Positions 34,360-34,436 of a DNA stretch of 64,000 nucleotides are shown in pieces. How positions within the stretch are numbered: position 1 is the stretch's first letter; every line of letters starts with the position of its first letter. The stretch lies in NCBI RefSeq assembly GCF_054482595.1, contig NZ_CM137008.1, one strand, 5' to 3'. The notes beneath the pieces were generated by a model that saw only the letters and a list, made by a program, of their open reading frames with translations, had not been told where the DNA came from and ran no database searches. The translations under genes and the position numbers were made by a program.

Positions 34360-34436
34360 TGGATTGATCCAGTAATTCCCTCAGAATTGCATATCAATTT
34401 GCTTAGAGTCCCCGGCGGCCACCGGGGATTTTTTCT
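34360..34436 (+). ncRNA. oop: oop antisense RNA (overlaps 3' end of cII), ending at hairpin/T-run terminator
   Basis: Plus-strand hairpin ccccgg cggcca ccgggg plus TTTTTT at 34410..34436; sequence resembles remembered lambda oop; 5' end estimated from the 77-nt lambda length. Confidence 0.5.

What the first reader, a model, noticed from the sequence alone, without database searches (positions are those of the whole stretch)
34360..34436. oop-like antisense RNA overlapping the 3' end of cII
A plus-strand hairpin (ccccgg/ccgggg) with a T-run lies inside the cII 3' end on the opposite strand, and the upstream ~50 nt resemble lambda oop. This implies conserved antisense control of cII despite the altered immunity region.
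Basis: partly seen in the sequence, partly recalled or inferred. Interest (0 to 1): 0.3.

Follow-up and report, generated by a model that had tools for sequence, protein, structure and literature searches.

The report
Lambda-type oop antisense RNA gene
This is the ordinary, already described oop small-RNA gene of a lambda-like prophage: a short gene with its own promoter and terminator, read backwards across the end of the lysogeny gene cII, and identical in sequence to the copy in Shiga-toxin phage 933W.

Summary
It is not new.

- **Unit.** Window 34323-34435 (+) holds a promoter, a ~77-nt transcribed region and an intrinsic terminator.
- **Promoter.** TTGAGT-17-CATAAT with a TG extension lies inside the first codons of gene O. 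It sits in a 61-nt block 100% identical to lambda pO.
- **Transcribed region.** It is 56/77 identical to lambda oop.
- **Overlap.** It covers the last 52 coding nt plus the stop codon of cII (minus strand, 34381-34677), exactly as in lambda.
- **Terminator.** UCCCCGG/CCGGGGA is followed by T6.
- **Relatives.** 120 viral contigs carrying pO give six different hairpins encoding six different cII tails, each followed by a T-run. Two stem pairs show compensatory double changes. The hairpin is more stable than 99.5-99.7% of synonymous recodings of cII.
- **Prior knowledge.** The whole unit is 100% identical to phage 933W. Hayes et al. 2012 aligned that phage's oop region with lambda's, and reviews list OOP for Stx phages.

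No transcript evidence could be obtained here. Annotation records and Rfam omit oop, but that is only an annotation gap.

The parts
34323..34351 (+). pO promoter: -35 TTGAGT (34323-34328), 17-nt spacer, extended -10 TGtCATAAT (-10 hexamer at 34346-34351). It lies inside the first codons of gene O on the other strand.
   Evidence: The consensus scan scores it 9/12 with a TG extension. It sits in a 61-nt block 100% identical to lambda and to 933W.
34359..34435 (+). Predicted oop RNA, about 77 nt, with ends placed by homology to lambda oop (38675..38599).
   Evidence: It is 56/77 identical to lambda oop. It is 100% identical to 933W. The fold z-score is -4.57.
34359..34402 (+). Predicted 5' stem-loop of oop (GUGGAUUGAU / AUCAAUUUGC, with an inner stem).
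   Evidence: Found in the MFE and centroid folds. The pairing register differs from lambda's and the stem is not supported by covariation.
34405..34434 (+). tO intrinsic terminator: core stem 34409-34415 / 34422-34428, loop CGGCCA, T6 at 34429-34434.
   Evidence: Found by the terminator scan. The helix is 99.5% paired across 30 variants, with 2 compensatory pairs. It is more stable than 4984 of 5000 synonymous recodings of cII.
34381..34435 (.). 55-bp sense/antisense overlap between oop and cII (stop codon plus the last 52 coding nt).
   Evidence: Lambda has the same 55-nt overlap (PMC3349717; 52 nt without the stop codon in PMC5869508).
34381..34677 (-). cII gene (98 aa), the presumed target of oop.
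   Evidence: Pfam Phage_CII, E = 6.7e-31. It is 32% identical to lambda CII. RefSeq calls it a 'CII family transcriptional regulator'.
33449..34348 (-). Replication gene O (299 aa). Its 5' end carries pO on the opposite strand.
   Evidence: Pfam Phage_rep_O, E = 5.5e-36. The segment is 96.6% identical to lambda at the nucleotide level.
34357..34372 (.). CTGT-N8-CCAG motif spanning the oop start, a possible LexA box.
   Evidence: The motif is present, but it occurs 5 times in the window against 1.7 expected, so it is weak evidence alone. PMC5869508 cites a LexA site within lambda oop-pO. Equating this motif with that site is my inference.

Best explanation
This is the oop gene of a lambda-like prophage. 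RNA polymerase starts at the constitutive sigma-70 promoter pO, which lies within the first codons of O on the opposite strand. It transcribes about 77 nt towards and into the 3' end of cII and stops at the tO hairpin and U-run.

The RNA is perfectly complementary to the last 52 coding nt and stop codon of cII and to the cII-O spacer. By analogy with lambda, it pairs with the pR transcript and triggers RNase III-dependent cleavage and decay of cII mRNA. That lowers CII and biases the phage towards lytic growth.

Convergent transcription from pO probably also damps pR transcription through the origin, as reported for lambda.

- **Shown here:** the promoter, the terminator, the geometry, the homology, and selection on the hairpin.
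- **Inferred:** that the RNA is made, and what it does to cII.
For: - **Promoter and homology.** A 61-nt block including pO is 100% identical to lambda, and the transcribed part is 56/77 identical. The published 33-bp lambdoid pO/oop consensus (PMC3349717) matches 32/33 at 34341-34373, and the one difference is at a position the authors mark as variable.
- **Terminator.** The promoter and terminator scans hit on the + strand only.
- **Fold.** z = -4.57.
- **Relatives.** 120 IMG/VR loci share pO. They give 33 distinct oop variants and six different terminator hairpins in six different cII tails, each with a T-run. The terminator helix is 99.5% paired, with CG to UA and GC to CG double changes.
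- **Selection on the hairpin.** It beats 99.5-99.7% of synonymous recodings of cII in three alleles.
- **Identity with 933W.** 100% over 34300-34445.
- **Literature.** The antisense and RNase III mechanism in lambda is in PMC5869508 and PMC12197685. OOP-like sequences in Stx phages are noted in PMC5488031 and PMC3349717. An OOP at the same position was seen by RNA-seq in prophage BTP1 (PMC7067206). pO/pR interference is in PMC3985674.
- **Prophage state.** The prophage looks complete.
Against: - There is no expression data for this window or, in the searchable library, for the 933W-type allele.
- The 5' stem-loop is not conserved pair by pair. The lambda and window types fold in different registers, and mosaic variants weaken it.
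- The two compensatory pairs are linked and may reflect a single evolutionary event.
- The shuffle controls in the count of structure pairs ignore relatedness.
- The synonymous-recoding test used uniform codon choice.
Confidence: 0.9

Rival explanations
1. The hairpin is a by-product of the cII coding sequence, or acts only in the rightward cII-O mRNA (for example as a stabiliser or processing site). On this reading no small + strand RNA is made.
For: The stem is a perfect inverted repeat, so it forms in both transcripts. The region is protein-coding.
Against: - The T-run is on the + strand only. On the minus strand the stem is followed by CUCUAAGC, and the scan finds no minus-strand terminator.
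- A promoter identical to lambda pO sits about 77 nt upstream on the + strand.
- The hairpin is kept across six different peptide sequences.
- It is far more stable than synonymous recodings allow by chance: 16 of 5000 are as stable.
Confidence: 0.04
2. The unit matters mainly as a promoter, not as an RNA. Convergent transcription from pO interferes with pR-driven transcription through the origin and so tunes replication initiation. Antisense pairing with cII would be secondary.
For: In lambda, pO activity lowers pR transcription, and pO- mutants replicate poorly (PMC3985674). In the loci collected here the promoter and the first ~15 nt are the most conserved part, while the cII-overlapping part is replaced freely (the promoter pattern itself was the search key). 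The replication module here is lambda-type.
Against: The terminator is under selection in every allele, which argues that a defined short RNA matters. OOP supplied in trans abolishes CII activities in lambda (PMC5869508, PMC3349717). The two roles are not exclusive.
Confidence: 0.2
3. The unit is a silent relic in a decaying prophage: the sequence is conserved by descent but no longer used.
For: The window is a chromosomal prophage, and no expression data exist.
Against: The prophage has intact-looking int, xis, cIII, cI, cro, cII, O, P, Q, lysis, head and tail genes. The unit is 100% identical to that of the functional phage 933W. It is present at 99% identity or more in 457 complete E. coli records.
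Confidence: 0.04

Closest known systems
Bacteriophage lambda OOP RNA (pO-oop-tO), 77 nt, lambda 38675..38599
   Same: - The promoter is identical.
- The position is the same: it starts in the cII-O spacer and ends 52 coding nt inside cII.
- The length is the same.
- It has a two-hairpin fold ending in an intrinsic terminator.
- It is 73% identical in sequence.
   Different: - 21 of 77 positions differ, mostly in the cII overlap (17 of 55).
- The terminator stem has two compensatory pair changes and a 6-nt instead of a 4-nt loop.
- The 5' stem-loop is predicted in a register shifted by 4 nt.
- The target cII is only 32% identical in protein.
oop region of Stx2 phage 933W (AF125520) and relatives BP-4795, Stx2 converting phage I and AU5Stx1
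   Same: It is 100% identical to 933W over promoter, RNA and terminator, and 95-97% identical over a 401-nt cII-O segment. This region was aligned with lambda oop in Fig. S1 and S2 of PMC3349717, and reviews list OOP for Stx phages (PMC5488031, PMC12197685).
   Different: The host element here is a lambda-like prophage beside torS, with no stx gene annotated in the ~42.6 kb of the window examined. It combines a 933W-type cII/oop with a lambda-type O-P-ren module.
OOP(BTP1) and the short oop-like units next to other cII tail types (cII ending ...SFEA / ...FFEA)
   Same: [quoted passage not shown] They share the first ~15 nt and pO, and each has its own hairpin and T-run. The BTP1 transcript was seen by RNA-seq (PMC7067206).
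   Different: They are 65-66 nt long, with unrelated sequence after nt 15 and a different terminator hairpin.

Membership tests
lambdoid OOP antisense RNA (pO-oop-tO) | Encoded antisense to the 3' end of cII, starting in the cII-O spacer | tested here: met
   The unit is at 34359-34435 (+). The cII ORF is at 34381-34677 (-) and O starts at 34348 (-). [quoted passage not shown]
lambdoid OOP antisense RNA (pO-oop-tO) | pO promoter within the 5' end of O, on the opposite strand | tested here: met
   TTGAGT-17-CATAAT lies at 34323-34351, in a block 100% identical to lambda over 61 nt.
lambdoid OOP antisense RNA (pO-oop-tO) | Conserved 33-bp pO/oop 5' block (ACTGGATCaATCcACAGGAGTaATTATGaCAAA, PMC3349717) | tested here: met
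   It matches 32/33 at 34341-34373. The one difference is at a lower-case (variable) position. The window has a single copy, with none expected by chance.
lambdoid OOP antisense RNA (pO-oop-tO) | Self-terminating at an intrinsic terminator (tO) about 77 nt from the start | tested here: met
   The + strand has a GC-rich stem plus T6 ending at 34434. The helix is 99.5% paired in 30 variants. It is selected beyond the coding constraint.
lambdoid OOP antisense RNA (pO-oop-tO) | Sequence homology of the transcribed part to lambda oop | tested here: met
   56/77 identical in an ungapped alignment.
lambdoid OOP antisense RNA (pO-oop-tO) | 5' stem-loop conserved as in lambda | tested here: inconclusive
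   A 5' stem-loop is predicted in all variants, but in different registers. There is no compensatory support, and paired cells are 77-82%.
lambdoid OOP antisense RNA (pO-oop-tO) | A discrete ~77-nt transcript is produced | not testable with these tools
   No expression data are available. No paper in the held library reports it for the 933W-type allele.
lambdoid OOP antisense RNA (pO-oop-tO) | RNase III-dependent down-regulation of cII mRNA | not testable with these tools
   This is known for lambda only (Krinke and Wulff, cited in PMC5869508).
Rfam-curated RNA family | Match to a covariance model at gathering score | tested here: not met
   Nothing reaches gathering score in 34200-34800. Only sub-threshold terminator-like hits appear, with E of 0.6 or more. 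No oop-named family appeared among the matches, so this says nothing against membership in the OOP family.

The most novel reading that the evidence does not exclude
oop from this stx-less resident prophage is base-for-base identical to that of Stx phage 933W. If pO stays active in the lysogen, this RNA could act in trans on the cII mRNA of an incoming or co-resident Stx phage with the same cII tail, and so shift its lysis-lysogeny choice. That would be cross-talk between prophages through a shared antisense RNA.

E. coli genomes that match this unit hold up to 5 places matching it. In lambda, OOP supplied in trans makes cII+ phages plate clear, even with five mismatches (PMC3349717).
Probability: 0.15. 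Interest if true: 0.45.

Novelty: already known. Interest (0 to 1): 0.1.

Why it matters
It matters little as a discovery. oop has been known in lambda for some 50 years. Its counterpart in the 933W-type cII-O region, identical to this one, has been aligned and discussed in the literature.

- **Annotation gap.** None of the GenBank or RefSeq records inspected annotates oop, and no Rfam model matched it. Yet the unit is present at 99% identity or more in 457 complete E. coli records.
- **Overlapping constraints.** The cII tail codes for protein while the opposite strand keeps a terminator through at least six different hairpin solutions.

Tried and rejected
- **Rfam.** Both the gathering and the permissive searches found no oop match, only sub-threshold terminator look-alikes (His_leader, ncS54, ctRNA_p42d, NsiR1). 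These were rejected as chance.
- **Annotated oop features.** I looked in NC_001416, J02459, AF125520, KU238068 and RefSeq EC5502 and found none.
- **5' stem-loop covariation.** I tested both the lambda register and the window register. Neither is conserved across variants, so I make no claim about it.
- **LexA box.** CTGT-N8-CCAG is present at the oop start, but the motif occurs 5 times in the window against 1.7 expected. I kept it only as a lead.
- **Second copy.** A search for another pO/oop copy in the window found none.
- **Small + strand ORF.** The 34-aa TTG ORF at 34387-34491 was considered. It runs past the predicted terminator, and no evidence for it was found or sought. I did not pursue it.
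- **Literature.** Searches for experimental detection of the 933W-type oop found nothing beyond sequence alignments and reviews.

Full report
**1. Observation**

The + strand at 34405-34434 reads AGAGUCCCCGG-CGGCCA-CCGGGGAUUUUUU. The core stem is UCCCCGG (34409-34415) paired with CCGGGGA (34422-34428). The loop has 6 nt, and T6 follows at 34429-34434.

The terminator scan reports this as an 11-pair stem (6 G-C pairs) on the + strand. It reports nothing on the minus strand at this place.

The hairpin lies inside the 3' end of a minus-strand ORF, 34381-34677, of 98 aa. That ORF is a full-length Phage_CII match (E = 6.7e-31).

The 78 nt from 34359 fold into two stem-loops at -31.2 kcal/mol. Shuffles average -17.8, z is -4.57, and 0 of 200 shuffles fold as well.

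**2. What it is**

*Context.* The window is a lambda-like prophage lying beside torS in an E. coli chromosome. It is 100% identical to strain EC5502 over the queried 2.6 kb (33400-36000). The annotated ~42.6 kb shows int, xis, cIII, cI, cro, cII, O, P, ren, the nin genes, Q, lysis, head and tail genes. The pR operon runs on the minus strand.

*Promoter.* A 161-nt alignment with the reverse strand of lambda 38574-38734 shows the first 61 columns 100% identical. This block includes the start of O, TTGAGT-17-CATAAT and the first transcribed bases. The scan finds only two promoter-like sites in 1.8 kb on both strands. One is exactly this one, at 34323-34351, with a TG extension. Its -10 ends 7 nt before 34359.

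*Transcribed region.* The lambda sequence GTTGATAGATCC... begins at lambda 38675, which is my recollection of the mapped oop 5' end. The homologous G here is 34359. Over 77 nt the two sequences are 56/77 identical: 18/22 outside cII and 38/55 within the cII overlap.

[quoted passage not shown] These are the figures given for lambda in PMC3349717 and PMC5869508.

*Published consensus.* Hayes et al. define a 33-bp conserved lambdoid pO/oop block. It matches 32/33 at 34341-34373, and the single difference is at a position they mark as variable. It occurs once in the window, with none expected by chance.

**3. Evidence from relatives**

Extracting the sequence downstream gives 33 distinct oop variants.

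Six different terminator hairpins occur. Each encodes a different cII tail, and each is followed by a T-run:

| cII tail encoded | Note |
|---|---|
| RPAATER | lambda type |
| SPVAAGD | this window |
| SPAATED | |
| RPVCKTER | |
| PQDCCNS | short 65-66-nt unit |
| APKNGEF | short 65-66-nt unit |

On a 30-variant alignment (A2) the terminator helix is 99.5% paired. Two pairs change on both sides in 8 variants, CG to UA and GC to CG. These two changes are linked and may be a single event. The shuffle control also ignores relatedness, so I treat this as supportive rather than decisive.

An independent test asks whether the hairpin is only a by-product of the protein sequence. I recoded the last 17 cII codons synonymously 5000 times. 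A hairpin as stable as the real one arose in 16 (window type), 26 (lambda type) and 14 (third type) cases. The nucleotide sequence is therefore selected for the hairpin beyond what the protein requires.

On the minus strand the stem is preceded by an A-run and followed by CUCUAAGC. It cannot be an intrinsic terminator for rightward transcription.

The 5' stem-loop is less clear. Lambda-type sequences pair with i+j=49 (AUCCAG/CUGGAU). The window type pairs with i+j=45 (UGAU/AUCA, plus an inner stem). Mosaic variants weaken either register. I make no claim beyond "a 5' hairpin is predicted".

**4. Mechanism**

*Shown:* a promoter identical to a known active one, a terminator under selection, and perfect complementarity to the cII 3' end, which follows from the cis-antisense arrangement.

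*Inferred from lambda* (Krinke and Wulff, as reviewed in PMC5869508 and PMC12197685):
- The RNA pairs with the pR transcript.
- RNase III cleaves the duplex, and cII mRNA decays.
- CII falls, which favours lytic growth.

*A second, non-exclusive role* is convergent-promoter interference of pO with pR transcription through ori (PMC3985674). That role is plausible here because the O-P module is 96.6% identical to lambda.

*A possible LexA site.* A CTGT-N8-CCAG motif spans the start (34357-34372), and PMC5869508 cites a LexA site in lambda oop-pO. The motif alone is not significant, with 5 found against 1.7 expected.

**5. Comparison with what is known**

The unit from promoter to terminator (34300-34445) is 100% identical to phage 933W. 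The 401-nt cII-O segment is 95-97% identical to AU5Stx1, BP-4795, Stx2 converting phage I and other Stx phages.

Hayes et al. 2012 (PMC3349717, Figs S1 and S2) aligned the oop regions of lambda, 434, 21, 933W, phi-4795, H-19B, HK022, P22 and others. Reviews state that OOP-like sequences occur in the cII-O regions of Stx phages and list OOP for "lambda and Stx phages" (PMC5488031, PMC12197685). An OOP at the same position was detected by RNA-seq in Salmonella prophage BTP1 (PMC7067206).

All sequence-testable family features are met. Transcript production and RNase III dependence cannot be tested here. I found no paper in the held library showing the transcript for the 933W-type allele.

**6. 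Novelty and verdict**

This is already known.

Two things are worth recording. First, there is an annotation gap: no oop feature in any record inspected and no Rfam match, although the 118-nt unit is present at 99% identity or more in 457 complete E. coli records and at 80% coverage or more in 1034 genomes. Second, the terminator persists through six different hairpin solutions within a protein-coding tail.

The most novel reading left open is trans cross-talk between prophages and Stx phages that share this oop and cII tail. I rate it at a probability of about 0.15.

Noticed in passing
window 34359-34402, and loci L001-L121 (variants): oop variants are mosaics. The 5' end (GTGGATTGAT or GTTGATAGAT), the loop (TTCCC or TGACC), the 3' half of stem I (ATATCAA or ATCTGGA) and the terminator assort semi-independently. 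This suggests recombination joints inside oop. The 5' stem-loop is predicted in two registers, 4 nt apart.
   Followed up: partly
L003, L031, L106: A short 65-66-nt oop-like unit sits next to a different cII tail type (cII ending ...SFEA or ...FFEA). It shares only pO and the first ~15 nt with lambda oop, and has its own hairpin and T-run.
   Followed up: partly
window 33905-34010: Four iteron-like repeats (tccctc-ttttgaggga type) lie inside gene O, where lambda has its ori iterons. They are followed by an AT-rich stretch.
   Followed up: no
window 38967-39025 (+): There is a full-length Rfam match to the lambda cIII thermoregulator (88.5 bits, E = 3e-20). The pL operon therefore carries a lambda-type cIII leader, even though cI, cro and cII are not lambda-type.
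   Followed up: no
window 2049-2247 (-): There is a full-length Rfam match to IS009 (180.7 bits) in the prophage region upstream of the stretch whose annotation I fetched. Its context was not examined.
   Followed up: no
window 50526-50948 (-): An Rfam cspA thermoregulator match (153 bits) coincides with the host cspG gene and leader, outside the prophage beyond torS-yccM-gnsA.
   Followed up: partly
window 33334-34442 versus 34445-35900: There is a module junction. O-P-ren and pO are lambda-like (96.6% over 1109 nt). The cII/oop body is identical to 933W over 34300-34445. The blastn comparison with lambda 37800-39700 found no match beyond 34442, so cro and cI are not lambda-like at the nucleotide level.
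   Followed up: partly
window 34387-34491 (+): A 34-aa TTG-initiated ORF starts inside the oop region and runs past the terminator. It is probably spurious.
   Followed up: no
public records NC_001416, J02459, AF125520, KU238068, NZ_CP092647: None of these records annotates oop, pO or tO, and no Rfam model matched oop. The element would therefore be missed by routine annotation.
   Followed up: yes
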